IMG/VR virus record: IMGVR_UViG_3300042314_000891
Coordinates: 21,799-85,798 of that record
DNA from: a virus
Taxonomy: Duplodnaviria; Caudoviricetes
Strand: one strand, 5' to 3'
DNA: 64,000 nt
The notes under the pieces are model-generated. The model made no database searches and was not told where the DNA came from. It saw only the letters and a program-made list of their open reading frames with translations. Position 1 is the first letter of the stretch; each line of letters starts with the position of its first letter. Position numbers and translations under genes: made by a program. Of the stretch, positions 27,306-37,931 are shown piece after piece.

Positions 27306-27866
27306 ATGATTAAAGGGATTGAATGTCCATATATCATTTCCAAACTATCGGAGCATGATTTAATAAAGGAAGATGTTTTAGATTTAATTAATGATGCTGA
27401 ATCAAATCGTTATACATACGCAGAAGATTATACTGATATAACGAGAACTGATTGGAATATTAGTAGAGATATTGAAAGAGAATACACAAAAATTGCAATG
27501 CCTCCTATTGTGGCATTAATGCAAAACAGATTTTTAGAATTGGGTTATAATGAAATGAACATACATAATGTATGGTTTCAACAATACAAAAAAGGTTCAG
27601 AGCATGGTTGGCATGTTCACTTAAATTGCCAATTTACCAATGTTTATTATTTAGATTTACCAGAAGGGGCCCCTAAAACGCAACTTTTAAATCCAATGAA
27701 CCAAAAAGAGATTATAGAGTTAGATGTAAATGAAGGTGATGTTTTAACATTCCCAAGTTTCATTTTACATAGAGCACCAAATGTGGAAAGTAATATAGTA
27801 AAAACTATTATATCATTTAATTCAGATTGTAATATTAAATCAGTTGCTGGTTTATACGATTTTTAA
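27306..27866 (+). CDS. Putative 2OG-Fe(II) oxygenase
   Basis: 'WFQQY...HGWHVH', 'VYYL', 'FPSFILH', 'KTIISFN'. Confidence 0.75.
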   Translation: MIKGIECPYIISKLSEHDLIKEDVLDLINDAESNRYTYAEDYTDITRTDWNISRDIEREYTKIAMPPIVALMQNRFLELGYNEMNIHNVWFQQYKKGSEHGWHVHLNCQFTNVYYLDLPEGAPKTQLLNPMNQKEIIELDVNEGDVLTFPSFILHRAPNVESNIVKTIISFNSDCNIKSVAGLYDF

Positions 27867-27896
27867 AAAAGTTATAATAAACTTAAAAGATTAGAT

Positions 27897-28433
27897 ATGC
27901 AAAGTATTGATATTTTTCCAATAAGAATATTTGAAAATTATATAGAAGTTCCAGATTCTTTAACCGATGGTATTAGGGAAGATATAAAAGATGATACCAA
28001 ATACGATACTCCAATTGATTGGGATGGCGGTGTGTATTCATCTTTTAATTATGAAAGCAAACTATTATATGGTACTAAAGAGCATAATCAAATAATAGAT
28101 AATGTTATAGAAATAGTTAAAACTACACCACCTTACAATGGATTTGGTGATAATTTTATTTATGAATATAATATGTGGTGGAATTATTATACGGCGGGAA
28201 AGTATCAAGAATACCATAGCCATGCTAACAATATACTTTCTGGAGTTTGGTATTTGAATGATTCAAATGCACATACCGTATTTTGTGATAGGGGTCTTAA
28301 ACACAAAGTTTTACCAACGAAAGGTAAAATAGTTTTCTTCCCATCGTACCTACCACACTATGTAGAACCATCCGATGATGAAAGAATGACAGTAGCATTC
28401 AATTTTCAATTATCAAAGCGGAACGTAAAATAA
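27897..28433 (+). CDS. Putative 2OG-Fe(II) oxygenase
   Basis: 'QEYHSH', 'SGVWYL', 'FPSYLPHYV', 'RMTVAFN'. Confidence 0.8.
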   Translation: MQSIDIFPIRIFENYIEVPDSLTDGIREDIKDDTKYDTPIDWDGGVYSSFNYESKLLYGTKEHNQIIDNVIEIVKTTPPYNGFGDNFIYEYNMWWNYYTAGKYQEYHSHANNILSGVWYLNDSNAHTVFCDRGLKHKVLPTKGKIVFFPSYLPHYVEPSDDERMTVAFNFQLSKRNVK

Positions 28434-28451
28434 AAAAAAAGATATATATAA

Positions 28452-28483
28452 TTTGGAATTACGAAAAAAGTTTCGTATATTTG
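28452..28483 (+). promoter_or_regulatory. Bacteroidota-type promoter for tmRNA
   Basis: TTTG-N20-TATATTTG. Confidence 0.75.
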
Positions 28484-28502
28484 TAAACGTTATTTGAAAT
28501 AT

Positions 28503-28888
28503 GGGGATGACCGGCTTTTGACAGGTATGAAGACTGGTTGTATTGATGCAAGTAAGGTTAGATGGAAACCTTTGAAGACCTATCAAACAATAAGTGCAAA
28601 CGTAGAATTATCTACAATGACGTTCGAAGATGCTATGGCATGGATGAACTCATTCGATTACGCAGTAGCTGCCTAATCAATCCCGCATCACTCGTGGGAC
28701 TTAAAAAGAAGTGAACAATTTAAGGTCTCGTTTGAGGTTCTACCTATTAAAGTGAATCTTCCACATTTGAGAGTGGCAATGGCAAAATAGAAACTCTATA
28801 TTTTTTCAGTTTAGAAAAATTGAATAAACTTGTGAACGATTTACATTAGAAACTTATTTGGACTTGGGTTCGAATCCCAACATCTCCA
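28503..28888 (+). ncRNA. ssrA: tmRNA; tag ANVELSTMTFEDAMAWMNSFDYAVAA* (28596-28676)
   Basis: GGGGATG/CATCTCCA acceptor with G3-U70, 5' '...TTTGACAGG', T-arm GGTTCGAATCC, internal frame ending YAVAA-stop. Confidence 0.92.
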
Positions 28889-28891
28889 CAA

Positions 28892-29082
28892 AAAATAAAT
28901 GAGAAATCATTTGGATATATGAAAAAAGTTTCGTATATTTGTATCATAATAAATCGCGGGGAGGATGTTGGTTTCCCACCGGTCTCATAAGCCAGGTCTA
29001 CGATAGTTCGATTCTGTCTCCCGCAACCAAAAATAAATGAGAAATCATTTGGATATATGAAAAAAGTTTCGTATATTTGTAT
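28892..29082 (+). repeat. Direct repeat (~53 bp, two copies) carrying a promoter, flanking tRNA-Met
   Basis: 'AAAATAAATGAGAAATCATTTGGATATATGAAAAAAGTTTCGTATATTTGTAT' near 28892 and 29030; a related promoter copy at 29193-29223. Confidence 0.85.
28955..29029 (+). tRNA. tRNA-Met(CAT), initiator-like, atypical
   Basis: C1:A72 mismatch, CTCATAA loop, encoded CCA; anticodon stem imperfect. Confidence 0.7.
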
Positions 29083-29299
29083 TATAGAAAATGAGGTTAG
29101 TATGCCGGTGTGGAGAAGTCCGGTGTTAAGAGGACCCGAGAGGTAGAAATACCATCCCACTACTCATCCAACAAAAAAAAAGTAAAAATAATTTTGATAT
29201 ATGGAAAAAGTTTCGTATATTTGTATTATAGATTTGAGACCAATAGGTGATGAAAGATACTCGGTTAATCAAATTAAAAATGTTCTTTAAAATATAAGC

Positions 29300-30135
29300 A
29301 CATAGTAGACTAGTTCTACATAGTGTACATCGGCCGCCTATGGTCGTGAAATAAACTACGAAAGTAGGATAAAGTGAATCATTTGGTTTAAGTGATTTGC
29401 GGCTTCGAAAGGAGCTTGAGTAGGCAAGTGGAATATCATTTCACCTTTAGTATTGAGGGTAACACTGTAAAGAGGGTGGTGAAATGACTGGGCTAAAGTA
29501 GATAGTTCAGTTGAGGTGGGAACACCAATAAGAATAATCCATAGAGTTATTGCGAGAAACTGAAACTTAATCCCTTTCAACAATTGCGTGATTCAATATT
29601 AGAGTTTGCTTAAAACCGAAAGGTAAGATAAAGTACGAGTGGTGTCGTTATTATCCTTACTCTTCACCTACCAAGGTAGGAGTTATGAAGCAAACTTAAA
29701 GTATGGTGTTAGGGATAACACATCGAGTAGTTCAGTATTCTGTTGTTCAAAAGATAACGGAGCAGGTTGGCGAACCACTACTTGAAACCATCTACAAACC
29801 AAACTCAATTTGCCGGTTAGTGCAAACTATAAACAAAAAGAGCAAAAGTGTTCGTCAGTTGCAAACGAAAGGTGCGTACATAGTAGGGAGTTGTTCCTTG
29901 CCACGATACCTCCGCAAGAGGTCTGTGATTCTTTCGAAAAACTTCTAACACCGCAAGTGTGAATCTGTTCGGCAGAGTAGAAGAAGCGGAGTAAAGAGAG
30001 AGTAGTTTGTAACTTTATGAGTGGTTGGCTTAACTAACCCGCATTGAATCGGTACTATCCAAAAGATAGTGGAAAAGTTGGGAAACAATAATCCAACGAA
30101 AGCTGGTTCTTTTACGTGAGTATTCTCATCCGTAA
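29300..30135 (+). ncRNA. Giant structured ncRNA, GOLLD-like (boundaries approximate)
   Basis: ~800 nt without a credible ORF, raised GC, many GNRA-type hairpins (CTAC-GAAA-GTAG, ACC-GAAA-GGT, ACACCGCAAGTGT), own promoter, abuts tRNAs. Confidence 0.6.
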
Positions 30136-30143
30136 TAATATAA

Positions 30144-30217
30144 GCGAGATTGGTGTAATGGTAGCACATCGGCCGTCCAGGTCGGAGGAGGGGGTTCAAT
30201 TCCTTTGTTTCGCTCCA
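30144..30217 (+). tRNA. tRNA-Gly(TCC), atypical (G33)
   Basis: GCGAGAT acceptor, U73-CCA, anticodon loop CG-TCC-AG. Confidence 0.65.
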
Positions 30218-30220
30218 TAA

Positions 30221-30293
30221 GCGGAGAAAGTGTTCCGGTAGCATGTGTACATTCCTGTACAATGAGGTGGTTCGATTCCATCTCTCCGCTCCA
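30221..30293 (+). tRNA. tRNA-Gly-like, 6-nt anticodon loop
   Basis: GCGGAGA/TCTCCGC, U73-CCA, stem TGTAC/GTACA enclosing ATTCCT. Confidence 0.6.
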
Positions 30294-30378
30294 AAATTTA
30301 AATTATAAAATAATAACCAATATTACTATTTTTAACTTAAAATAAAAAAAAGTTATATATATTAAAAGAAAAAAGAAA

Positions 30379-30522
30379 ATGAAAACTCTTAACCTACATA
30401 CGATAGCTTATCAACCGACATCAAATTTGATGTGGGCAGGCAATCGCGTGTGTGATTTTAGTTCGAAAGGAATTAAAAATCAGTTAGGGGCAACAATATT
30501 AAACGATGTAGACTTGGGATAA
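30379..30522 (+). CDS. Putative attenuator leader peptide (47 aa) MKTLNLHTIAYQPTSNLMWAGNRVCDFSSKGIKNQLGATILNDVDLG
   Basis: A-rich Bacteroidota-type initiation region, extreme codon diversity, contains a strand complementary to the downstream terminator. Confidence 0.7.
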   Translation: MKTLNLHTIAYQPTSNLMWAGNRVCDFSSKGIKNQLGATILNDVDLG

Positions 30523-30549
30523 AACCAAACTACATACTTAAATTAAAAC

Positions 30550-30582
30550 AACCCCTGACTCAAAAAGTTAGGGGTTTTTTTA
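30550..30582 (+). terminator. Intrinsic terminator (attenuator) upstream of tRNA array
   Basis: ACCCCTGACT-CAAAA-AGTTAGGGGT followed by a T-run. Confidence 0.85.
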
Positions 30583-30595
30583 TGTTTAAAAATAA

Positions 30596-30667
30596 GTTGA
30601 TGTGGCGCAGTGGTAGCGCAGTAGACTGTTAATCTATTGGTCGTAGGTTCGAATCCTACCATCAACG
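30596..30667 (+). tRNA. tRNA-Asn(GTT)
   Basis: Cloverleaf, loop CT-GTT-AA. Confidence 0.9.
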
Positions 30668-30675
30668 CAAGAATA

Positions 30676-30687
30676 AGTTCTTTGACA
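30676..30687 (+). promoter_or_regulatory. boxA-like antitermination element
   Basis: AGTTCTTTGACA resembles rrn boxA (E. coli TGCTCTTTAACA); second copy TGTTCTTTAAAA at 29281. Confidence 0.5.
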
Positions 30688-30699
30688 TAATGGTGAAAT

Positions 30700-30772
30700 A
30701 GTGGGTTAGCTCAATTGGTAGAGCGCCGTCTTTACATGGCGGATGTTGGGGGTTCAAGTCCCTCACTCACTA
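30700..30772 (+). tRNA. tRNA-Val(TAC)
   Basis: Cloverleaf, loop TT-TAC-AT. Confidence 0.9.
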
Positions 30773-30780
30773 CAATAGAT

Positions 30781-30854
30781 GTCCGTATGACGTAATTGGC
30801 AACCGTGCTGGTTTTAGAAACCAGATTGTGTAGGTTCGAATCCTACTATGGACA
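30781..30854 (+). tRNA. tRNA-Leu(TAG), short variable loop
   Basis: CTGGT-TT-TAG-AA-ACCAG, T-arm GTAGG-TTCGAAT-CCTAC. Confidence 0.8.
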
Positions 30855-30893
30855 CAGGTAGTTCCCGATGCTACATATCAAAATCGGACTTGG

Positions 30894-30970
30894 GGAGTAG
30901 TGGCAGATGAGGTTCATTGCGCTGGACTGAAAATCCAGAGGAACAGGTTCGATACCTGTCTGCTCCACCA
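30894..30970 (+). tRNA. tRNA-Phe(GAA)
   Basis: CTGGA-CT-GAA-AA-TCCAG, encoded CCA. Confidence 0.88.
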
Positions 30971-30972
30971 AT

Positions 30973-31045
30973 GAACTCGTAGCTCAATTGGTAGAGCACT
31001 ACACTTTTAATGTAGGGGTTTTGGGTTCGATTCCCAACGGGTTCA
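30973..31045 (+). tRNA. tRNA-Lys(TTT)
   Basis: Cloverleaf, loop CT-TTT-AA. Confidence 0.9.
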
Positions 31046-31051
31046 CAATAT

Positions 31052-31124
31052 AGGGTGGTATATCAATGGTTAGATTACTTGCTTTGGGAGCAAGAGGCTG
31101 TGAGTTCGAGTCTCGCTCACCCTA
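31052..31124 (+). tRNA. tRNA-Pro(TGG)
   Basis: CTTGC-TT-TGG-GA-GCAAG. Confidence 0.85.
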
Positions 31125-31127
31125 CAC

Positions 31128-31201
31128 AGAGATATAGCTCAATTGGTTAGAGCACCGACCTGATACGTCGGGGGTTATAGGTTCGAGTCCTATTTTCTCT
31201 A
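31128..31201 (+). tRNA. tRNA-Ile(GAT)
   Basis: CCGAC-CT-GAT-AC-GTCGG. Confidence 0.9.
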
Positions 31202-31271
31202 CACTTTTTCAACTTTTAGATAAAGGTTGGAAAATTTTTTGAAGGTAATTTTTTACTTTGGAAATAAATAC

Positions 31272-31342
31272 ATGTCTTTGGTGCAATGGTAGCATATCGG
31301 TCTCCAAAACCGCAGATGAAAGTTCGAATCTTTCAGGACGTG
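31272..31342 (+). tRNA. tRNA-Trp(CCA)
   Basis: Loop CT-CCA-AA, G73. Confidence 0.85.
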
Positions 31343-31346
31343 CAAT

Positions 31347-31418
31347 GGTTCTATGGTGTAATGGATAGCACCTGACACTACGGATGTCAAAGTTGGAGTT
31401 CGAGTCTCTATGGAACTA
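31347..31418 (+). tRNA. tRNA-Arg(ACG)
   Basis: TGACA-CT-ACG-GA-TGTCA. Confidence 0.9.
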
Positions 31419-31424
31419 CATTAT

Positions 31425-31495
31425 GGTGAATTGTCCGAGTGGTTAGGGAGTGCTCTGCAAAAGCATTTACATTGGTTCGAATCCAATATTCACCT
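31425..31495 (+). tRNA. tRNA-Cys(GCA)
   Basis: Loop CT-GCA-AA, U73. Confidence 0.88.
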
Positions 31496-31496
31496 C

Positions 31497-31573
31497 GTTG
31501 TTTATAGTGTTAATGGTCAGCACGTCAGTTTGTGGTACTGATAGTATGGGTTCGAATCCCATTAAACACCCCA
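31497..31573 (+). tRNA. tRNA-His(GTG)
   Basis: TCAGT-TT-GTG-GT-ACTGA, C73-CCA. Confidence 0.85.
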
Positions 31574-31576
31574 TAT

Positions 31577-31649
31577 TGCGTGGCTTGGTGGAAAAGAGCT
31601 ATCTCTCATAAGGAAAGCCAAGTGGGTTCGAACCCCACACACGCAACCA
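31577..31649 (+). tRNA. tRNA-Met(CAT), degenerate D and anticodon arms
   Basis: TGCGTG/CACGCA acceptor, CTCATAA loop, T-arm, ACCA end. Confidence 0.55.
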
Positions 31650-31727
31650 TAAAATAAAAAAGTAAAAAATGTTAGGAAATATAAAATAAATGTTGTATAT
31701 TTGTTAAATAAAATCTAAAAGTTAAAT

Positions 31728-33917
31728 ATGAAAAAGTTACAAATCACTCTAATAGGTATTTTCCTATTATTAGGTTGTGCAAAGGAAGAAGCACTACAAC
31801 CAACAATAATTGATACTCCACCATCTGTATTCACAGAGGATGCAATCAATGTTACACTAAAATCTGCATTTGTTGTAGGTAAAGTACAAGATGTTGCATA
31901 TTCACCTACAATTGAACGTGGGTTTATTTATGCAAGTAATGCAGATGTGAATGGATATGGTAATACCATTAAATTAGATACGAATATTACAATATTCAAA
32001 TCACAACTAACCAAACTAACCCCCAATAAAACTTATTACTATAAAGCATACGCCAAAAACAAATATGGTACTGCTTATGGTGAATTGAAGAATTTTACAA
32101 CGGGAGATTATCTTTTACCAACTTTAACTACCGATAGTTTAGGCAATATAACTCTTACATCGGTAAAACTATATGGTAATATCACAGATGATGGCGAAAC
32201 GCCCATATTAAAGCGTGGATTCTGTATTAGTACTAACCCAACACCAACAACTACCGATAGCACATTCAATACGGGTAATGGGATGGGTTTATTTGATTTA
32301 GTTGTAATCAAACTAAAAGCAGGTACAAAGTACAATGTTCGTGCCTTTGCTACAAATGCTATGGGTACATCCTATGGTAAAGAAATCAGTTTTTCAACAT
32401 TAGATTATAAACTACCTACAATCCAAACAAATTCAGTAACGGATATTGGATTAAATGTAGCAACATTAAGTGGGAATGTAAAAGATTTAGGTAGAGGTGA
32501 GTTAAAGGAACGTGGGATAGTTTTATCCAAATCACAAAACCCAACTATTGATGATATGAAATTCAAATCATCGGTTACGGATTTGGGAGAGTATAAGATT
32601 GTAGTTACTAAATTAGAAGTAAATACTAAATACTACGCAAGAGCATATACGCAGAATGAAGCAGGTATTGTATATGGTGATGAAGTAAATTTCTCAACAT
32701 TAGATTATACATTTGCAAAAATATCTACCAACGATATTGGGAATATCTCATTTAGGAGTGCAAGAATTGGTGGTGAGGTTACAAACGAAGGTAATACACC
32801 CGTAACTGAAAGAGGTGTAGTAATTAGTAGAGAGAAAACACCTACAATTTCAGATAGAAAACTTACAGTAGGAAATGGTTTGGGTGGATATATGGTAGAT
32901 GTAAATGAACTGATACCTAATTCAACATACTATATTAGAGCATATTGTATAAACTCAAAGGGTATAGTTTATGGTAATGAACGAAATTTCAGAACTTTGG
33001 ATGATACACCTCCACCAGCTCCAATAGTATCTATACCTACTATACCATCATCGCCTACAACACCACCACCAACAACATTTGTACCTGGACCTGTTGTAAC
33101 AACACCACCACCAACACTATCGGCATTGCCGGAGTATGTGAGTGTACCTGATAGTAGATTTGAACAGGCACTAATAGATAGAGGATACGATTTTGTATTG
33201 GATGGTAGAATAAGAACTGCACCAATCGCAAATGTAACTACAATTGAGATATTAGATAATATGAATATCAGTAATATCAGAGGTATAGAAGCATTCCCTA
33301 ATCTACAACGATTGCGTATTATTCACAATCAAATTAGTAGTGTAGATTTATCTAAAAATCCTAACTTAACTTGGGTTTCCTTTTGGGATAATAAATTGAC
33401 AAGTATTGATGTGAGTTCATTGTATAAGTTAGAGTATTTTGGAGCAGGTGATAATGATATTGTAACATTTGATGTTTCCAGAAATTACAATCTAAATGAA
33501 TTGGATTTTGGTAATACGGAAGGTAGAGCTGGATATGGAACAACTCGAGGTGTAACATCTATTGATATTTCACACAATCCAAAAATGCGCAGATTATATA
33601 TGCAAAACAATAGATTGACAAGTTTGAATATTAGTAGAAATAAATTGATTGAAGATGTTTGGGCGCATGATAATAAAATTGAATCTTTGGATTGTAGTAA
33701 TAACCCGAATTTATCATTTATAATAATGTGGAATAATAATTTAAGATACTTAAATATAAAAGGAACATATCAGGGTGGAGTGCCAGCACGTTTATATACA
33801 AAAAATAACCCTAATTTAGCAGAAATTAAAGTTACAAATGCAAGTAATATTTTAGCAAGAAGACAATTTTGTGAATATTGTTTCGTAATAGATAGTTGGA
33901 CAAAATATGTAGAATAA
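31728..33917 (+). CDS. Lipoprotein with fibronectin-III-like repeats, Pro/Thr linker and leucine-rich repeats
   Basis: Lipobox 'LLLGC'; four repeats ending 'YYxRAYxxNxxGxxYG'; LRRs 'NxLTSLDVSxN'; own TAnnTTTG promoter at 31696. Confidence 0.8.
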   Translation: MKKLQITLIGIFLLLGCAKEEALQPTIIDTPPSVFTEDAINVTLKSAFVVGKVQDVAYSPTIERGFIYASNADVNGYGNTIKLDTNITIFKSQLTKLTPNKTYYYKAYAKNKYGTAYGELKNFTTGDYLLPTLTTDSLGNITLTSVKLYGNITDDGETPILKRGFCISTNPTPTTTDSTFNTGNGMGLFDLVVIKLKAGTKYNVRAFATNAMGTSYGKEISFSTLDYKLPTIQTNSVTDIGLNVATLSGNVKDLGRGELKERGIVLSKSQNPTIDDMKFKSSVTDLGEYKIVVTKLEVNTKYYARAYTQNEAGIVYGDEVNFSTLDYTFAKISTNDIGNISFRSARIGGEVTNEGNTPVTERGVVISREKTPTISDRKLTVGNGLGGYMVDVNELIPNSTYYIRAYCINSKGIVYGNERNFRTLDDTPPPAPIVSIPTIPSSPTTPPPTTFVPGPVVTTPPPTLSALPEYVSVPDSRFEQALIDRGYDFVLDGRIRTAPIANVTTIEILDNMNISNIRGIEAFPNLQRLRIIHNQISSVDLSKNPNLTWVSFWDNKLTSIDVSSLYKLEYFGAGDNDIVTFDVSRNYNLNELDFGNTEGRAGYGTTRGVTSIDISHNPKMRRLYMQNNRLTSLNISRNKLIEDVWAHDNKIESLDCSNNPNLSFIIMWNNNLRYLNIKGTYQGGVPARLYTKNNPNLAEIKVTNASNILARRQFCEYCFVIDSWTKYVE

Positions 33918-33949
33918 TTTGGATATATGAAAAAAGTTTTGTATATTTG
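33918..33949 (+). promoter_or_regulatory. Bacteroidota-type promoter for second tRNA block
   Basis: TTTG-N20-TATATTTG. Confidence 0.75.
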
Positions 33950-33956
33950 TAGAGTT

Positions 33957-34039
33957 GCTCGAATGTTGGAATGGTAGACAAGACAGACTTAAAATCTGTT
34001 GTCCGTATGGGCGTGTGGGTTCAAGTCCCTCTTCGAGTA
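33957..34039 (+). tRNA. tRNA-Leu(TAA)
   Basis: Loop CT-TAA-AA, long variable arm. Confidence 0.9.
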
Positions 34040-34045
34040 CATAAT

Positions 34046-34122
34046 GGGGATTTAGTTCAGTTGGCTAGAACGCTTGATTTGCATTCAAGAGGTCGTGGGT
34101 TCGAATCCCACTTTCTCCACCA
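34046..34122 (+). tRNA. tRNA-Ala(TGC)
   Basis: GGGG start with G3-U70, loop TT-TGC-AT, CCA. Confidence 0.9.
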
Positions 34123-34132
34123 AAAGAAATAT

Positions 34133-34240
34133 GCCGGAGTGGCGGAACAAATGGGAAGTACAACCATTAGACGTGCCTGATTCGAAGTGGTGCAGTAACC
34201 GAAAAGGACTGCGTGTGGGTAGCCAATCCCTCCTCCGGTA
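34133..34240 (+). ncRNA. tRNA-like RNA with enlarged D-loop and irregular anticodon/T loops
   Basis: GCCGGAG/CTCCGGT acceptor, Leu-like 'TGGCGGAA...AGACG', variable-arm hairpin GCAGT/ACTGC. Confidence 0.55.
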
Positions 34241-34296
34241 CCTTATTTATCGTTGAAAGAAACGATATTAGATTTTATCGTTAGATTAAACGATAT

Positions 34297-34370
34297 GGAC
34301 TTGTAGCTCACTCGGTTAGAGCAGTTGACTCATAATCAAAAGGTAGTAGGTTCGATTCCTACCTGGTCCA
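34297..34370 (+). tRNA. tRNA with CAT anticodon, probably Ile2
   Basis: Cloverleaf, loop CT-CAT-AA, Ile2-like 5' end GGACTTGTAGCTCA. Confidence 0.8.
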
Positions 34371-34590
34371 CAACGAGTAAGAGATACTCGGTAGTCTTTA
34401 ATCCAAGACTCATTTAACAATGGATAGGGTATTGGACCGGACATCCTTAAACGCCGGTGTCGTGGGAATAAAGGAGAACGACACATCTCCTCCCCGTAGT
34501 GTTGACTTTTTAAGCAGTAAGATGCATTGGGTTTTTGAAAGGAAAAACTATAAATAACTACTCACAAGTAATCTCAATGTGGGGAAATTT

Positions 34591-34665
34591 GCAGGTATAG
34601 CACAGTGGTTAGTGCTCTGGTCTTCCAAACCGGAGACGTCAGTTCGAATCTGACTACCTGCTCCA
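34591..34665 (+). tRNA. tRNA-Gly(TCC), canonical
   Basis: Loop CT-TCC-AA, U73-CCA. Confidence 0.92.
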
Positions 34666-34780
34666 TAAGGAGCTCCCGCTTTAAGGTGAAGGACACGCGG
34701 GCGAATAACTTTCAGAGTAAGTTGTAAAAGAACTCGAAACCTTAAGTCTAGTGTGGGATGAGACTCCTACCCACACATTT

Positions 34781-34864
34781 GGGAGTATCGCATAGTGGCA
34801 ATTGCGGGTGACTGTAAATCACTTCTCTACGAGTTCGGAGGTTCGAGTCCTTCTACTCCCACCA
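34781..34864 (+). tRNA. tRNA-Tyr(GTA)
   Basis: Loop CT-GTA-AA, long variable arm, CCA. Confidence 0.9.
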
Positions 34865-34880
34865 AATAATCCCAATAAAG

Positions 34881-34912
34881 TTTGGAATTATAAAAGAAAA
34901 TACTTATATTTG
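34881..34912 (+). promoter_or_regulatory. Bacteroidota-type promoter upstream of tRNA-Glu
   Basis: TTTG-N20-TATATTTG. Confidence 0.75.
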
Positions 34913-34917
34913 TAAAT

Positions 34918-34991
34918 GCTCCGTTCGTCTAATTGGTTAGGACATCCGCCTTTCACGTGGAAGCTTACGGGTTCGATTCCCGTACGGAGTA
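34918..34991 (+). tRNA. tRNA-Glu(TTC)
   Basis: Loop CT-TTC-AC, D-arm CGTCTAA..AGGAC. Confidence 0.9.
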
Positions 34992-35089
34992 CAAAAGATT
35001 AACGTAAGTCGCCTATGTGGGTGAAACTAATTCCTCATTTGGGGAAGAGAAGATGTGATTTCTTTAATAGGTGTAGTTAATCTTTAATT

Positions 35090-35162
35090 GCTTCCGTAGC
35101 TCATATGGTAGAGCAGCTGACTTGTAATCAGCAGGTGGTTGGTTCGAGCCCGACCGGAAGCT
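35090..35162 (+). tRNA. tRNA-Thr(TGT)
   Basis: GCTGA-CT-TGT-AA-TCAGC. Confidence 0.9.
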
Positions 35163-35253
35163 CCGATTGATGTTTCGTTTGATGGTATGTTTTTAAGTTG
35201 CCAAAGTGCCGAAAGGATTACTTGATAAGTAAAAAGGATAAACCATCGTATTT

Positions 35254-35403
35254 GGCTCTATAATTGTTGAGGTAGCACCAAAGACAATGAGTGGGTGAAT
35301 GATGATTAAATGTAGGTGACACTCCTTAATACTAGGATTGGAGAGAAGAGTTGGTGCATTTAGTAAGTAGTTCATAAGATGGGTTCGATTCCCATTAGAG
35401 CTA
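35254..35403 (+). ncRNA. 150-nt tRNA-like RNA (acceptor and T arm with a large internal domain)
   Basis: GGCTCTA/TAGAGCT acceptor, ATGGG-TTCGATT-CCCAT T-arm, no recognisable anticodon arm. Confidence 0.6.
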
Positions 35404-35594
35404 CAAAACAAACGAAGACTATGGTGTAACCCCATGGTATATAAAATCCAAAATGGTCCTGTTGAAGCCGGAATAGTCATACAGGTCAGGAGAGAGTTAC
35501 TATAAGTGGGGAGTAATTAACCCAATACGAAATGTAACCACCAATGAAAATTGGTTATGATGTGTAGAAGGACACAAAAAGTTTGTTTTAATTT

Positions 35595-35668
35595 AGTTCG
35601 TTGGTGTAGAGGCCCAACATGCTTCCCTGTCACGGAAGAGACCACGGGTTCGAATCCCGTACGAACTG
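35595..35668 (+). tRNA. tRNA-Asp(GTC)
   Basis: CTTCC-CT-GTC-AC-GGAAG, G73. Confidence 0.9.
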
Positions 35669-35673
35669 CGAAT

Positions 35674-35744
35674 TGCTCGATGGTGTAGCGGTAGCACAAC
35701 TGTTTTTGGTGCAGTTAGGGTTGGTTCGAATCCAGCTCGGGTAA
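35674..35744 (+). tRNA. tRNA-Gln(TTG)
   Basis: Loop TT-TTG-GT, U1-A72. Confidence 0.88.
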
Positions 35745-35761
35745 CATTAAATAATATTATT

Positions 35762-36103
35762 ATGAAAGAATTAGGAATGTCTATTATGCTTTTATTCAAC
35801 ACATTGGGTGGTTCAATTGACCCAAAGTTTAGTGATGAAGCACCTTTGGTTGAAACTATAAAAATTGAAATCAGAGAATTACAAAGAAAAATCCAATGGG
35901 TTGATGCAACCGATGAGGATTATGCAAGTAAGTATGTTCGTATAGAAAAATTATCGAAAGATATTATAAAGAAAAAAGAACAACTTAAAAATATGGAGAA
36001 ACGTGCCAAACTTAAACAAAAGTGGGCATTGGAAGATTCATTGGAAATCCGTAAGAAATATCCACCAATTGTTTTGGATACTTTAAAGTCAGAACAAATT
36101 TAG
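35762..36103 (+). CDS. Hypothetical coiled-coil protein
   Basis: 113-aa ORF within the tRNA island. Confidence 0.6.
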   Translation: MKELGMSIMLLFNTLGGSIDPKFSDEAPLVETIKIEIRELQRKIQWVDATDEDYASKYVRIEKLSKDIIKKKEQLKNMEKRAKLKQKWALEDSLEIRKKYPPIVLDTLKSEQI

Positions 36104-36108
36104 TAAAA

Positions 36109-36194
36109 GGAGGGTTGGCAGAGTTGGTCTATTGCACCGGTCTTGAAAACCGGAGTCTGTAACAGGACCGTGAGTTCGAATCTCACACCCTCCT
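36109..36194 (+). tRNA. tRNA-Ser(TGA)
   Basis: CCGGT-CT-TGA-AA-ACCGG, long variable arm. Confidence 0.9.
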
Positions 36195-36199
36195 CATCT

Positions 36200-36271
36200 G
36201 GCTCCATAGGTAAACGGATATACCGTCGCTCTTCTAAAGCGAATTTCCAAGTTCGATTCTTGGTGGGGCTA
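36200..36271 (+). tRNA. tRNA-Arg(TCT)
   Basis: TCGCT-CT-TCT-AA-AGCGA. Confidence 0.88.
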
Positions 36272-36277
36272 CAATAT

Positions 36278-36366
36278 AGAGGGTTGGGTGAGTGGCTTAA
36301 ACCAGCAGTTTGCTAAACTGTCGTGGGGGTAATTCTCCACCAGCGGTTCGAATCCGCTATCCTCTA
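36278..36366 (+). tRNA. tRNA-Ser(GCT)
   Basis: GCAGT-TT-GCT-AA-ACTGT, long variable arm. Confidence 0.9.
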
Positions 36367-36394
36367 CATTTGTTATAAGTTAATATTTATAGGT

Positions 36395-36721
36395 ATGATA
36401 AAGTTAAAACACATATTGAAAGAAGAATTGGTAAAAGATACTGATTTTTTAGATTTTGCAGATAACAGATTGGGTGGAGCTACAAAAATAGCACAAACTG
36501 CTAAAGAAAAAGGTGGAGATGCATTACTAACATACCATCACTTTGCTGTTAAGCTACCTTATTATGAGAAAGCAAAAAATGGTGAACTAGATATTGATAC
36601 CGCTAAAAAAGAGTTTATAGAAACATTGGGTAAAATATCATTAGATATGGACCAAACTACATTTCAAATTGAAGTAGGTAGATTGGAAGTATTGGGTGAA
36701 CTATTCATAAAAAATAAATAA
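36395..36721 (+). CDS. Hypothetical protein (N-terminus MIKLKHILKEE)
   Basis: ATG at 36395 after ATATTTATA; the track's upstream extension overlaps tRNA-Ser. Confidence 0.65.
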   Translation: MIKLKHILKEELVKDTDFLDFADNRLGGATKIAQTAKEKGGDALLTYHHFAVKLPYYEKAKNGELDIDTAKKEFIETLGKISLDMDQTTFQIEVGRLEVLGELFIKNK

Positions 36722-36753
36722 TAAAAATATAAGGTTACACAAACCTTAAAAAT

Positions 36754-36914
36754 TGTGATGTGGCGAAATTGGCAGACGCACCCTCCTGTCTCGGGGGCGG
36801 GGATAAATAAATAAAGTAAGAATAATAAAGGGGTTGACCACCTAGCTTCCGGAAGCGCCAAAAATTGTTCTTTACCTAATTACCTTATGGATGGTTCGAA
36901 TCCTCCCATTACAG
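36754..36914 (+). ncRNA. tRNA-Asp(GTC)-like RNA with ~85-90-nt variable-arm insertion
   Basis: TGTGATG/CATTACA-G acceptor, D-arm, CCCTC-CT-GTC-TC-GGGGG, GGTTCGAATCC T-loop. Confidence 0.65.
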
Positions 36915-36931
36915 CAATTAAACCAAACAAA

Positions 36932-37462
36932 ATGAAACTGCGTAAGATATTAAAAGAAATACAAAAGACACCATATCAGTATGGGTGTGCAATGTTATAC
37001 ATAGATTTTGATGAATCTATATTGACAAGTACAATTAGTAATGTTGATGTATATGATGATGAGAATGGTCACTATGGTTTAGAAACAGAACCACACGTTA
37101 CATTACTATATGGTTTACATACAAATGTACCAGATGGTGTAGTTTCTCAAATTATCAACCAAGTTCCGTTTGGTGATATTAAACTAACAAACCCATCTAT
37201 TTTCGAAGGTAACCCAGATTACGATGTATTAAAGTTTGATGCAAGTGGTGAGGGATTACAAAGAGCAAATGAGTTATTAAAAAAGCTACCACATTCAAAC
37301 GATTACCCAGAATACAATCCACATATGACTGTGGCTTACTTAAAGAAAGGTAAGTGGCAACAATATACAAATAAGTTTATGCAGATGCAATTTGAAGTTT
37401 CACCATTATATGTCATTTATAGTAAAAGCGATGGTAGTAAACACAAATTTAAAATAAGGTAA
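36932..37462 (+). CDS. 2H phosphoesterase (T4 gp57B/Acb1-like or 2'-5' RNA ligase-like)
   Basis: Two HxT motifs: 'EPHVTLLYG' and 'YNPHMTVAY'. Confidence 0.8.
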   Translation: MKLRKILKEIQKTPYQYGCAMLYIDFDESILTSTISNVDVYDDENGHYGLETEPHVTLLYGLHTNVPDGVVSQIINQVPFGDIKLTNPSIFEGNPDYDVLKFDASGEGLQRANELLKKLPHSNDYPEYNPHMTVAYLKKGKWQQYTNKFMQMQFEVSPLYVIYSKSDGSKHKFKIR

Positions 37463-37466
37463 GGAT

Positions 37467-37931
37467 ATGGAAAAGGTATTCAGAAGATTAATTGACAGAA
37501 AAAAAGTAGAATTAGTAACATATATATCTGAATACCTATCTAATAACGATGGTATTGAAATACTCATTGGATGTGATTCACAAGTATTCAAAACAAAAAC
37601 AATCTATGCAATTGTAATTGCACTTTACACTCCCGGCAAAGGAGCTCACTTACTTTTCACTCGTTGGAACACTAATAGAGAGAACTATTCAGGTAATCGT
37701 TTGATACATGAAGTATGGTCTTCTATTGAGGTAGCAGAGTATTTAAGAGAAGCGGGATTACCAAAGGCAACATATATTGACGTAGATTTAAACCCAGACC
37801 CACAATTCAAATCAAATGAAGTGTTCCGTCAAGCAGTAGGAATGGTAGAAGGAATGGGTTACAAATGTAGACACAAAGGAACAAATGCAGCAGTAACATA
37901 TGCGGCAGATAGTTTAGTAAAAATGTACTAA
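37467..37931 (+). CDS. RNase H-like YkuK/DUF458 family protein
   Basis: 'ILIGCDSQ', 'EVWSSIEVA', 'IDVDLN', 'AADSL'. Confidence 0.75.
   Translation: MEKVFRRLIDRKKVELVTYISEYLSNNDGIEILIGCDSQVFKTKTIYAIVIALYTPGKGAHLLFTRWNTNRENYSGNRLIHEVWSSIEVAEYLREAGLPKATYIDVDLNPDPQFKSNEVFRQAVGMVEGMGYKCRHKGTNAAVTYAADSLVKMY

What the first reader, a model, noticed from the sequence alone, without database searches (positions are those of the whole stretch)
30355..30600. Pan-codon leader-peptide attenuator gating the phage tRNA array
Seen: an unannotated 47-codon ORF (30379-30522) with an A-rich start. Its first 27 codons encode 19 of the 20 amino acids (only Glu is absent), and 27 of the first 29 codons are distinct, including GC-rich codons rare in this genome (ACG, CCG, CGC, GGC, GTG, TCG). 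Codons 35-37 contain AGTTAGGGG (30482-30490), an exact copy of the terminator 3' arm, so it can pair with the terminator 5' arm CCCCTGACT (30552-30560) as an antiterminator. A hairpin ATGTAG..TTGG/CCAA..CTACAT over the stop codon would bring these two strands together. The terminator ends ~14 nt before 12 tandem tRNAs (Asn, Val, Leu, Phe, Lys, Pro, Ile, Trp, Arg-ACG, Cys, His, Met), and all 12 amino acids occur in the sensor segment. tRNA-Glu, the one amino acid not sampled, sits directly behind its own promoter (34881). Established: trp/his-type attenuators use runs of one codon type. Inference: a ribosome stall at almost any codon in the first ~29 leaves the antiterminator free, so phage tRNAs would be made when host tRNAs are depleted or cleaved, for example by anticodon-nuclease defences or starvation. 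I know of no described all-codon sensor of this kind.
Basis: partly seen in the sequence, partly recalled or inferred. Interest (0 to 1): 0.92.

Follow-up and report, generated by a model that had tools for sequence, protein, structure and literature searches.

The report
Leader-peptide attenuator gating phage tRNAs
A lake-water phage places a tiny translated gene that uses nearly every amino acid, wired to a switchable transcription stop, directly in front of a block of its tRNA genes, so it probably makes those tRNAs mainly when ribosomes are reading slowly.

Summary
The window has a 47-codon ORF (30379-30522), a 9-nt copy of the terminator's 3' arm inside it, a hairpin over the stop codon, and a strong intrinsic terminator 14 nt before tRNA-Asn. 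Only the twelfth "tRNA-Met" is not called by ARAGORN or Rfam.

I found 29 distinct DNA versions in uncultured phage contigs. All keep the ORF, four mutually complementary segments (1:2, 2:3, 3:4) and the terminator. A tRNA array follows all 29, starting with tRNA-Asn in 28.

- The helices show compensatory changes, and the four segments change together.
- The frame stays open (about 3e-5 by chance) while amino-acid identity is weakly constrained (pN/pS 0.64).
- 34 of 46 distinct peptides encode all 20 amino acids. That is more than a relatedness-aware drift model expects (33 observed against about 15).

Best reading: a translation-speed-sensing transcription attenuator for phage tRNA genes. 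The mechanism is inferred, not shown.

Two side claims failed. Glu's absence is a single A/G polymorphism, and leader content does not track the downstream tRNAs. The mycobacterial whiB7 uORF is a published many-amino-acid sensor, so the kind is known. Its use by a phage, for tRNA genes, beside GOLLD RNA, appears undescribed.

Earlier agents of this scan reported the same family on other DNA.

The parts
29194..29227 (+). Nearest upstream host-type promoter-like site (before GOLLD); likely start of the transcript that reaches the leader
   Evidence: Repeat families D1/D2. The regex for the full consensus hits 29194 and five other places, and none lies between here and tRNA-Asn. That it is the promoter in use is inference.
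29723..30132 (+). GOLLD RNA, conserved 3' domain (context, upstream neighbour of the leader)
   Evidence: Rfam RF02032, 292.6 bits against a gathering score of 150. GOLLD lies upstream of the leader in 14 of 16 relatives' loci scanned.
30330..30378 (+). A/T-rich conserved block and A-rich translation start region of the leader
   Evidence: Conserved among relatives whose further upstream context differs. Contains no host-type promoter consensus.
30379..30522 (+). Leader ORF, 47 codons plus stop
   Evidence: Open in 29 of 29 distinct relatives. Other frames carry 4-6 stops each. Chance of keeping it open about 2.7e-4 x 0.12.
30386..30393 (+). Segment 1 (codons 3-5), pairs with segment 2 (helix P1, anti-antiterminator)
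   Evidence: MFE. 96.0% of cells paired in 22 distinct rows. Predicted independently by RNAalifold.
30395..30452 (+). Hairpin P2 inside the ORF
   Evidence: MFE. In the tip helix, 6 of 8 pairs have changes on both sides and 93.8% of cells are paired.
30453..30482 (+). Hairpin P3 inside the ORF
   Evidence: MFE. Tip helix: 93.9% of cells paired, 3 of 6 pairs with changes on both sides.
30482..30490 (+). Segment 2, identical to the terminator 3' arm; pairs with segment 1 or with segment 3 (antiterminator)
   Evidence: For 2:3, 91.9% of cells paired. Present in 29 of 29.
30506..30535 (+). Hairpin P4 over the stop codon (30520-30522); apical part of the antiterminator
   Evidence: MFE. 84.1% and 77.4% of cells paired in its two helices, with some changes on both sides.
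30550..30581 (+). Intrinsic terminator: segment 3 (30550-30560), loop, segment 4 (30566-30576), T run to 30581
   Evidence: Terminator scan. -16.0 kcal/mol. 90.8% of cells paired, 6 of 16 pairs with changes on both sides.
30596..31573 (+). Gated block of 11 tRNA genes (Asn, Val, Leu-TAG, Phe, Lys, Pro, Ile, Trp, Arg-ACG, Cys, His)
   Evidence: ARAGORN and Rfam. Same position in relatives.
   Evidence: Acceptor stem and T arm readable. Not called by ARAGORN or Rfam.

Best explanation
This is a ribosome-mediated transcription attenuator that decides whether transcription continues into the first block of phage tRNA genes. Transcription probably comes from upstream, most likely from the GOLLD promoter. 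The leader RNA has four segments. Segment 1 (codons 3-5) pairs with segment 2 (near the end of the ORF) and closes a three-way domain (P1, P2, P3). Segment 2 can instead pair with segment 3, enclosing hairpin P4, which gives the antiterminator. Segment 3 otherwise pairs with segment 4 to form the terminator. If no ribosome is present, or one runs quickly to the stop codon, segment 2 is held by segment 1 or covered, P4 is melted, 3:4 forms and transcription stops 14 nt before tRNA-Asn. If a ribosome lags anywhere in roughly the first 30 codons, segment 2 is free when segment 3 emerges, 2:3 forms first and RNA polymerase reads on into the tRNAs. Because the leader holds (nearly) every amino acid rather than a run of one, it would report general decoding speed, that is, shortage of any charged tRNA. 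Shown here: the anatomy, its conservation, the covariation, the selection to keep the frame open and to keep all amino-acid types, and the lack of a host-type promoter after the terminator. Inferred: translation, termination, and the direction of the response.
For: - Anatomy. The fold of 30340-30590 gives -65.5 kcal/mol against -36.6 +/- 3.9 for shuffles (z = -7.35), with P1, P2, P3, P4 and the terminator.
- Family and context. 29 distinct DNA versions exist (23 complete ones, and 6 more). All have the ORF, a segment-2 copy and a terminator. A tRNA array follows all 29: it begins with tRNA-Asn 3-19 nt after the T run in 28, and with tRNA-Tyr about 28 nt after it in L048.
- No promoter after the terminator. 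No host-type promoter consensus lies from -120 to the tRNA in 23 of 23, while the same pattern hits six known sites in the window.
- Structure counts. 85.1% of cells are paired against 79.4% in shuffles and 33-49% when slid. 22 pairs have changes on both sides against 13.6 in shuffles (0 of 500 shuffles reach this). P1 is 96.0% paired, the P2 tip has 6 of 8 pairs compensatory, and the terminator is 90.8% paired. The antiterminator 2:3 is 91.9% paired. RNAalifold on its own predicts P1, P2, P3 and the terminator, and 14 of 33 pairs are compensatory.
- Coordinated change in all four segments in divergent members (L041, L045 and L047 types). Cognate duplexes beat permuted ones for 1:2, 2:3 and 3:4 (0 of 5000 permutations each).
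- Energies. Before segment 4 exists, the 2:3 form is 1.8-7.6 kcal/mol better than the 1:2 form in 22 of 23. With segment 1 masked, the terminator form is 1.3-17.9 kcal/mol better once segment 4 exists, so the choice is kinetic.
- Translation. Frame 1 has 0 stops against 4-6 in each other frame in 8 of 8 sequences. The chance of creating no stop at the substituted sites is 2.7e-4, times 0.12 for 26 inserted codons. pN/pS is 0.64.
- All-20 property. 34 of 46 distinct peptides of 30-55 residues hold all 20 amino acids. On a minimum-spanning tree, 33 of 45 children hold all 20 against about 15 expected (sd 1.9). Fisher p is 1e-3 to 1e-5 on the 30 deep edges.
- Transcripts. RNA-library contigs of two studies cover the leader, and one (X15, 30329-30621) bridges the terminator by 40 nt.
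- Precedent. Single codons in the whiB7 uORF suffice for sensing (PMC10274678, section 7).
Against: - There is no direct evidence of translation, termination or regulated read-through.
- The RNA evidence is contigs only, at low depth (about 5). These cannot show ends or strand, and DNA carry-over cannot be excluded.
- In 14 of 23 sequences the equilibrium MFE of the whole leader is not the terminator form. It is a 2:3 plus 1:4 form within 0.3-4.3 kcal/mol of it, so the default state depends on folding kinetics that I could not model.
- One member (L012) has a weakened 2:3 pairing (-11.2 kcal/mol, shuffle p = 0.2).
- Segment 2 lies 12-28 nt upstream of the stop, so a ribosome at the stop covers at most its edge. 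A ribosome stalled in mid-ORF does not physically mask segment 1, so 'any codon' sensing is plausible but not assured.
- The all-20 test was not significant with my first 15 peptides (Fisher p 0.24-0.34). Part of the codon diversity follows from the RNA stems.
- 12 of 46 peptides lack 1-3 amino-acid types, and this window's own leader lacks Glu.
- Leader content does not track the gated tRNAs.
- A non-consensus or phage-specific promoter overlapping the leader was not excluded.
Confidence: 0.65

Rival explanations
1. A small protein gene with its own terminator that merely sits between GOLLD and the tRNA array. The tRNAs would be made by constitutive leakage through the terminator or from an unrecognised promoter, and the peptide itself would be the product that matters.
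For: The ORF is conserved and gene callers predict it in public data (3 clusters; 34 representative clusters at E <= 0.001, three of them long proteins with partial matches that I left out). The N-terminal 8 residues and one Trp are near-invariant.
Against: pN/pS is 0.64-0.74 and length varies from 30 to 55 residues with many in-frame indels. The invariant residues coincide with RNA helices (segment 1, the P2 base, and the CC/GG of the P2 tip). There is no Pfam match above cut-off. This reading does not explain why a copy of the terminator arm inside the ORF co-varies with both terminator arms. It also does not explain why the terminator abuts the first tRNA with no promoter consensus between them.
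Confidence: 0.12
2. An RNA-only element whose open frame is incidental: a structured 3' domain or terminator of the GOLLD transcription unit, or a switch that binds a factor or a tRNA directly.
For: The structure signal is very strong and shows clear covariation. The element always follows GOLLD (14 of 16 loci). Much of the peptide's conservation is explained by RNA pairing.
Against: The frame is open in 29 of 29 versions, while the other frames have 4-6 stops each. The chance of that under substitution at the same sites is about 3e-5. Indels keep the frame. An A-rich start region is conserved. The all-20 property is retained beyond drift. No Rfam family, T-box included, reaches its threshold here.
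Confidence: 0.1
3. A classical single-amino-acid attenuator specific for Asn (the first tRNA downstream) or for a small subset of amino acids.
For: tRNA-Asn is the first gene in 28 of 29 versions. Asn is codon 5, inside segment 1, in this window, and Asn makes up 5 of 47 residues here.
Against: There is no run of Asn or of any other codon. Codon 5 is Thr, Ser, Ile, Ala or Phe in many family members, and some leaders have a single Asn. L048 has the leader but no tRNA-Asn after it. Leader composition does not track the tRNA set that follows.
Confidence: 0.05

Closest known systems
Leader-peptide transcription attenuators of enterobacterial amino-acid operons (trpL, hisL, leuL, pheL, thrL, ilvL); textbook knowledge, recalled. 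The pheL paper PMC3082878 was seen only as a search listing.
   Same: A short translated leader, four segments with 1:2, 2:3 and 3:4 alternatives, and an intrinsic terminator just before the regulated genes. A lagging ribosome favours the antiterminator.
   Different: There is no run of one regulatory codon; (nearly) all 20 amino acids occur instead. The stop codon lies after segment 2, not between segments 1 and 2. Two extra hairpins lie inside the 1:2 domain. The output is tRNA genes, not biosynthetic enzymes. It is encoded by a phage whose promoters look Bacteroidota-type (motif recalled). No sequence similarity: the Rfam Thr_leader match is 23.6 bits against a gathering score of 55.
whiB7/wblC uORF attenuator of actinobacteria (PMC10274678; abstract and section 7 read)
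   Same: Stalling in a uORF gives antitermination. It senses many amino acids through single codons: the M. smegmatis uORF encodes 19 of 20 amino acids, and hits for 18 of 20 amino acids activate it. The uORF sequence and length vary between species.
   Different: Its output is a transcription factor for stress and drug resistance. The uORF is enriched for Ala. It is chromosomal and actinobacterial. There is no sequence relation. The phage leader shows no enrichment for one amino acid and feeds back on tRNA supply itself.
T-box riboswitches (recalled)
   Same: They link tRNA charging to read-through of a terminator by an antiterminator, and control genes of the translation supply chain.
   Different: T-boxes bind uncharged tRNA directly and need no ORF. 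No T-box match appears in the Rfam scan at E <= 1. Here an open frame is under selection.
Antibiotic-responsive leader-peptide attenuators of ABCF and erm genes (vmlR PMC9226507, msrD 10.1101/2021.11.29.470318; search listings only)
   Same: A stalled ribosome on a short leader ORF switches terminator and antiterminator.
   Different: They respond to drug-bound ribosomes at specific peptide motifs and control resistance proteins.

Membership tests
Leader-peptide (ribosome-mediated) transcription attenuator | Short ORF upstream of the regulated genes that is kept translatable | tested here: met
   Open in 29 of 29 versions. 0 stops against 4-6 in each other frame. P about 2.7e-4 x 0.12 for keeping it open. 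A-rich start context conserved. Translation itself was not observed.
Leader-peptide (ribosome-mediated) transcription attenuator | Intrinsic terminator between the leader and the regulated genes, with no promoter after it | tested here: met
   11-bp stem plus 7 T. Present in 29 of 29 versions. 3-19 nt to the first tRNA and no host-type promoter consensus in 23 of 23. Other promoter types were not tested.
Leader-peptide (ribosome-mediated) transcription attenuator | Antiterminator mutually exclusive with the terminator (2:3 against 3:4) | tested here: met
   91.9% of cells paired, 3 of 9 pairs changed on both sides. Cognate duplexes beat permuted ones in 0 of 5000 permutations. 2:3 is in the MFE up to segment 3 in 22 of 23.
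Leader-peptide (ribosome-mediated) transcription attenuator | Segment 1 within the ORF that sequesters segment 2 when no ribosome is there | tested here: met
   P1 has 96.0% of cells paired, is predicted by RNAalifold, and co-varies in L041 and L045 types.
Leader-peptide (ribosome-mediated) transcription attenuator | Run or enrichment of codons for the regulating amino acid | tested here: not met
   No run is present. 27 of the first 29 codons are distinct, and 34 of 46 peptides hold all 20 amino acids. This is the point where it departs from the classical type and resembles the whiB7 uORF.
Leader-peptide (ribosome-mediated) transcription attenuator | Read-through rises when the ribosome stalls in the leader | not testable with these tools
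   Needs reporters, Term-seq or in vitro coupled transcription-translation.
T-box riboswitch | Match to the T-box covariance model (specifier loop and T-box sequence) | tested here: not met
   No T-box hit at E <= 1 in 27500-37500.
Rfam Thr_leader (RF00506) | Score at or above the gathering threshold | tested here: not met
   23.6 bits against 55, covering only the terminator region 30519-30583.

The most novel reading that the evidence does not exclude
The leader is a purpose-built sensor with about one of each amino acid, kept complete by selection. It lets the phage switch on its own tRNA block whenever any host tRNA or charged tRNA pool fails, whether from starvation, phage-induced host shut-off or host anticodon-nuclease defences. 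That would make tRNA supply a feedback-controlled counter-measure, coupled in one transcription unit to GOLLD RNA.
Probability: 0.4. Interest if true: 0.85.

Novelty: new variant of a known kind. Interest (0 to 1): 0.78.

Why it matters
Phage tRNA genes are common, but how their expression is controlled is largely unknown. This element suggests one answer: a phage measures decoding speed with a test peptide and feeds the result back onto its own tRNA supply.

If true, it would be the first leader-peptide attenuator reported for tRNA genes and for a phage. It would also be a second, independent example, after the whiB7 uORF, of a sensor for many amino acids.

It gives a concrete handle on two open questions. 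One is why large phages carry near-complete tRNA sets. The other is what GOLLD RNA, whose function is unknown, has to do with tRNAs, since the switch sits exactly at the GOLLD/tRNA boundary in 14 of 16 loci scanned.

The compact 200-nt module could also serve as a general translation-stress reporter. I found no paper describing it in six full-text searches. Paper supplements were not consulted.

Tried and rejected
- GenBank phages. Searches with 621 nt (distant mode) matched only tRNA-Asn in unrelated phages. With 2.5 kb (near mode) there was no match at all, so no annotated relative exists in that collection.
- Pfam. On three leader peptides, the only hit was a sub-threshold DUF732 match (14.6 bits against 22.4), which I took as chance.
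- First all-20 test. With only 15 peptides, the relatedness-aware test was not significant (Fisher p 0.24-0.34). It became significant only with the 46-peptide set.
- Leader content against the gated tRNAs. L014 was left out because only 2 tRNAs precede a gap. The covered fraction was 0.53, equal to the proteome expectation, with shuffle p = 0.08. Not supported here.
- Asn-specific sensing: rejected.
- A host-type promoter inside or after the leader: none in 23 of 23. Other promoter classes were not tested.
- MAFFT alignment A5. The 25-sequence alignment puts segment 1 of the divergent members out of register, so I did not count pairs on it. I used per-sequence duplexes instead.
- RNA runs. 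Only contigs were available. Stretches without cover, and relative depths of GOLLD, leader and tRNAs, are not used as evidence.
- Covariance model. I did not build one, because the model length would probably exceed the calibration limit.
Full report
**Setting**

The window is part of an 85.8-kb IMG/VR viral contig, estimated 39% complete, from lake water. Around the finding lies a dense block of RNA genes:
- a phage tmRNA (28503-28889);
- GOLLD RNA (29723-30132; 292.6 bits);
- two odd tRNA-Gly-like genes (30144-30293);
- the ORF and terminator in question;
- 11 tandem tRNAs (30596-31573);
- a 729-codon ORF with its own promoter-like site;
- 13 further tRNAs.

A 40-nt promoter-like repeat occurs at 28453, 28911, 29049, 29194, 33919 and 34882. 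It has a TTTG box and, about 20 nt later, a TAnnTTTG box. From memory, this is the Bacteroidota housekeeping promoter type.

**Observation**

- the 47-codon ORF;
- 19 amino-acid types in the first 27 codons, with Glu missing;
- 27 distinct codons among the first 29;
- AGTTAGGGG exactly twice in 64 kb, at 30482-30490 and 30566-30574, against 0.40 expected;
- the complementary CCCCTGACT at 30552-30560;
- an 11-pair terminator with seven T;
- a hairpin over the stop codon;
- tRNA-Asn 14 nt after the last T.

The diversity statistics are unusual. P is 5.4e-4 and 8e-5 against the phage's own long ORFs. P is 1.25e-3 and 3.4e-3 against random open frames with the leader's own base composition. The cut-offs 27 and 29 were picked after the fact, however, and the rare GC-rich codons lie in RNA stems.

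The twelfth "tRNA-Met" is not called by ARAGORN or Rfam. The stretch 31577-31650 has an acceptor stem and a T arm, but I found no anticodon stem in it by eye.

**Structure in the window**

The 251 nt around the ORF fold far better than shuffles: -65.5 against -36.6 +/- 3.9 kcal/mol, z = -7.35.

The fold shows a fourth player. Segment 1 (30386-30393, codons 3-5) pairs with segment 2 (30483-30490). This closes a three-way domain with hairpins P2 and P3, both inside the ORF. The element therefore has the full 1:2, 2:3, 3:4 layout of a classical attenuator, with hairpin P4 over the stop codon as the apical part of the 2:3 antiterminator.

**Relatives**

GenBank phages hold no relative. Scans of IMG/VR and of metagenome contigs with DNA patterns and peptide alignments gave 34 loci with 25 distinct sequences, 23 of them complete. 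A second scan for a divergent subfamily gave six more distinct versions.

- All 29 complete versions have an ORF of 31-53 codons, a copy of the terminator's 3' arm near the end of the ORF, and a terminator of -12.8 to -25.0 kcal/mol.
- In 28 of the 29, tRNA-Asn follows 3-19 nt after the T run. In L048, tRNA-Asn is missing and tRNA-Tyr comes first.
- The tRNA blocks hold 8-16 genes where the locus is long enough. L014 has only 2 tRNAs before a gap.
- GOLLD lies 55-495 nt upstream of the leader in 14 of 16 loci scanned. Of the other two, L002 is cut short and L037 shows no GOLLD.
- What lies between GOLLD and the leader varies: nothing in L003 and L016, two tRNA-Gly-like genes in the window and L014, and a protein gene directly before the leader in L002.
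- No host-type promoter consensus lies from 120 nt before the start codon to the tRNA in any of 23 versions.

So the first tRNA block has to be transcribed through this terminator, most simply from the GOLLD promoter.

**Is the RNA structure real?**

On the 23-sequence alignment (22 distinct rows), 85.1% of cells pair. This compares with 79.4% in column shuffles and 33-49% when partners are slid. 22 pairs have changes on both sides against 13.6 in shuffles, and 0 of 500 shuffles reach this. By helix:

| Helix | Cells paired | Pairs changed on both sides |
|---|---|---|
| P1 (1:2) | 96.0% | 1 of 8 |
| P2 tip | 93.8% | 6 of 8 |
| P3 tip | 93.9% | 3 of 6 |
| Terminator (3:4) | 90.8% | 6 of 16 |
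| Antiterminator (2:3) | 91.9% | 3 of 9 |

RNAalifold, which did not know my structure, predicts P1, P2, P3 and the terminator, with 14 of 33 pairs compensatory.

The divergent subfamily is the most telling. In L041 the core of all four segments has changed together. In L045 and L047, segments 1, 2, 3 and 4 all carry the matching change. Over 22 distinct combinations of the four segments, cognate duplexes are more stable than permuted ones:
- 1:2: -9.7 against -8.2 kcal/mol;
- 2:3: -14.5 against -12.3;
- 3:4: -16.6 against -13.7.

In each case 0 of 5000 permutations did as well. Related sequences share arms, so these are not exact probabilities.

**Energetics**

- Before segment 4 is made, the 2:3 form is 1.8-7.6 kcal/mol more stable than the 1:2 form in 22 of 23. 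L012 is the exception.
- With segment 1 masked and the whole leader made, the terminator form is 1.3-17.9 kcal/mol more stable than the antiterminator form.
- With nothing masked, the terminator form (1:2 plus 3:4) and a second form (2:3 plus 1:4) lie within 0-4.3 kcal/mol. The second form is the MFE in 14 of 23.

The element is thus bistable, and the outcome must be set by the order of folding, as in known attenuators. I could not model that.

**Is the ORF translated?**

There is no direct evidence. Indirectly:
- Frame 1 has no stop, while the other two frames have 4-6 each, in 8 of 8 sequences checked.
- Along a minimum-spanning tree of 15 peptides, random substitutions at the same 294 sites would have left the frame open with probability 2.7e-4. 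The 26 inserted codons would all be sense with probability 0.12.
- Indels keep the frame, and the region before the start codon is A-rich in all versions. From memory, that is the usual start context in Bacteroidota.
- pN/pS is 0.64, or 0.74 without the first eight codons. Multi-base codon changes turn out to be compensatory changes in P2.
- The near-invariant residues map onto RNA helices.
- The peptide has no Pfam family.

This is the signature of a leader whose translation matters more than its product.

**The all-amino-acid property**

The window's leader has 19 types. Its nearest relatives differ by one A/G at 30475 and have Glu there, with the same tRNA order.

A profile search of 1.84 billion representative proteins gave 34 clusters at E <= 0.001. 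Three are long proteins with partial matches, which I left out. Together with my loci, this makes 46 distinct leader peptides of 30-55 residues after trimming N-terminal extensions called from upstream ATGs:
- 34 hold all 20 amino acids;
- 8 hold 19;
- 2 hold 18;
- 2 hold 17.

For one sequence the chance of all 20 is only about 0.4-4% (phage proteome) or 1-8% (leader composition).

To allow for relatedness, I redrew the residues of the columns that differ on each edge of a minimum-spanning tree. With 15 peptides this was not significant (Fisher p 0.24-0.34). With 46 peptides, 33 of 45 children hold all 20 against 14.7-15.5 expected (sd 1.8-1.9). Fisher p is 0.004-0.04 over all edges and 1e-3 to 1e-5 over the 30 edges with 12 or more changed columns. 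Rare residues move between positions; for example, Cys sits in different alignment columns in different lineages.

The tree is only a proxy for a phylogeny. Still, the result says completeness is retained more than drift allows.

The content does not follow the tRNAs in the gated block. Leaders hold 4-12 types with no tRNA there, and the covered fraction equals the proteome expectation. Asn-specific sensing is excluded by members with another residue at codon 5, by members with a single Asn, and by L048.

**How it most likely works (inferred)**

Assume a footprint of 15 nt before and 12 nt after the first base of the A-site codon.
- A-site codons 2-10 mask segment 1.
- Codons up to about 31 leave segment 2 free. 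The range in relatives is 28-42, which follows the position of segment 2.
- Later codons cover segment 2 or P4.
- A ribosome at the stop never reaches segment 3, which starts 22-54 nt after the stop.

A lagging ribosome therefore favours 2:3 and read-through. A fast ribosome, or none, favours 1:2 plus 3:4 and termination. Whether a ribosome stalled in mid-ORF prevents 1:2 from closing around it is not certain.

**RNA data**

In four metatranscriptome runs held as contigs, GOLLD is covered. Contigs of two studies also cover the leader: X15 over 30329-30621 and X16 over 30328-30601, at depth about 5. These are variants that match relatives L016 and L025. The X15 contig bridges the terminator by 40 nt into tRNA-Asn. 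Contigs cannot show ends or strand, and DNA carry-over is possible, so this is only a weak hint that read-through transcripts exist.

**Comparison with what is known**

The layout is that of the enterobacterial leader-peptide attenuators, but without the defining run of one codon. The closest functional precedent is the whiB7 uORF. Stalling there gives antitermination. [quoted passage not shown] Genes for 18 of 20 amino acids score as activators. Removing the single Trp, or the His codons, removes sensing of that amino acid (PMC10274678, abstract and section 7).

This shows that single codons can suffice, and that a sensor for many amino acids is not new as a kind. New here are:
- the owner (a phage);
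- the output (tRNA genes, a direct feedback on decoding capacity);
- the apparent selection for completeness rather than for one amino acid;
- the fixed place between GOLLD RNA and the tRNA array.

Six full-text searches found no description of it. Supplements were not consulted.

Earlier agents of this scan reported the same family on other DNA. I took from them the lead to the whiB7 paper, which I then read. I also took the claim that leader content tracks the tRNAs, which my test does not support.

**Verdict**

The attenuator reading is well supported by comparative evidence but untested at the bench (confidence 0.65). It is a new variant of a known kind, of high interest to people who work on phage tRNAs, GOLLD RNA and translation-coupled regulation.

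Noticed in passing
window 29723-30132 (promoter-like site at 29194-29227): GOLLD RNA: Rfam 292.6 bits for the conserved 3' domain. The 5' part probably starts soon after the promoter-like repeat. GOLLD lies upstream of the leader in 14 of 16 relatives' loci and is covered by RNA-library contigs in all four runs laid.
   Followed up: partly
window 28503-28889: Phage-encoded tmRNA (Rfam 87.5 bits) with a 26-residue tag ending in AVAA, directly behind a promoter-like repeat. tmRNA is also present in relatives L003, L010 and L011.
   Followed up: no
window 28888-29236: Three tandem promoter-like repeats about 140 nt apart (families D1/D2). The first two are each followed by a short stretch with a T-arm-like sequence, for example 29006-29037. 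These may be small tRNA-like RNAs with their own promoters.
   Followed up: no
window 30144-30293: Two odd tRNA-Gly-like genes just before the leader. One scores only 37.9 bits in Rfam, and ARAGORN gives the other a two-base 'anticodon'. They are absent in L003 and L016, where GOLLD runs straight into the leader. In L002 a protein ORF lies directly before the leader.
   Followed up: no
window 31577-31650: tRNA-like sequence after tRNA-His. It has a 7-bp acceptor stem, a perfect T arm and an encoded CCA, but I saw no anticodon stem by eye. ARAGORN and Rfam do not call it.
   Followed up: partly
window 31728-33917: A 729-codon ORF with its own promoter-like site, in the middle of the tRNA region. 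It has four internal repeats of about 300 nt (family D11) and a signal-peptide-like N terminus.
   Followed up: no
L048 1501-1760: A relative in which the leader and terminator are intact but tRNA-Asn is missing. The spacer that normally follows tRNA-Asn comes straight after the T run, and tRNA-Tyr is the first gene.
   Followed up: partly
L005, L009 and L006-L008 (upstream of tRNA-Asn): Other phage contigs share the same tRNA-Asn core but have no leader. In L005 and L009 a promoter-like site lies directly before the tRNA. In L006-L008 a long structured-looking RNA and a T run come before it.
   Followed up: no
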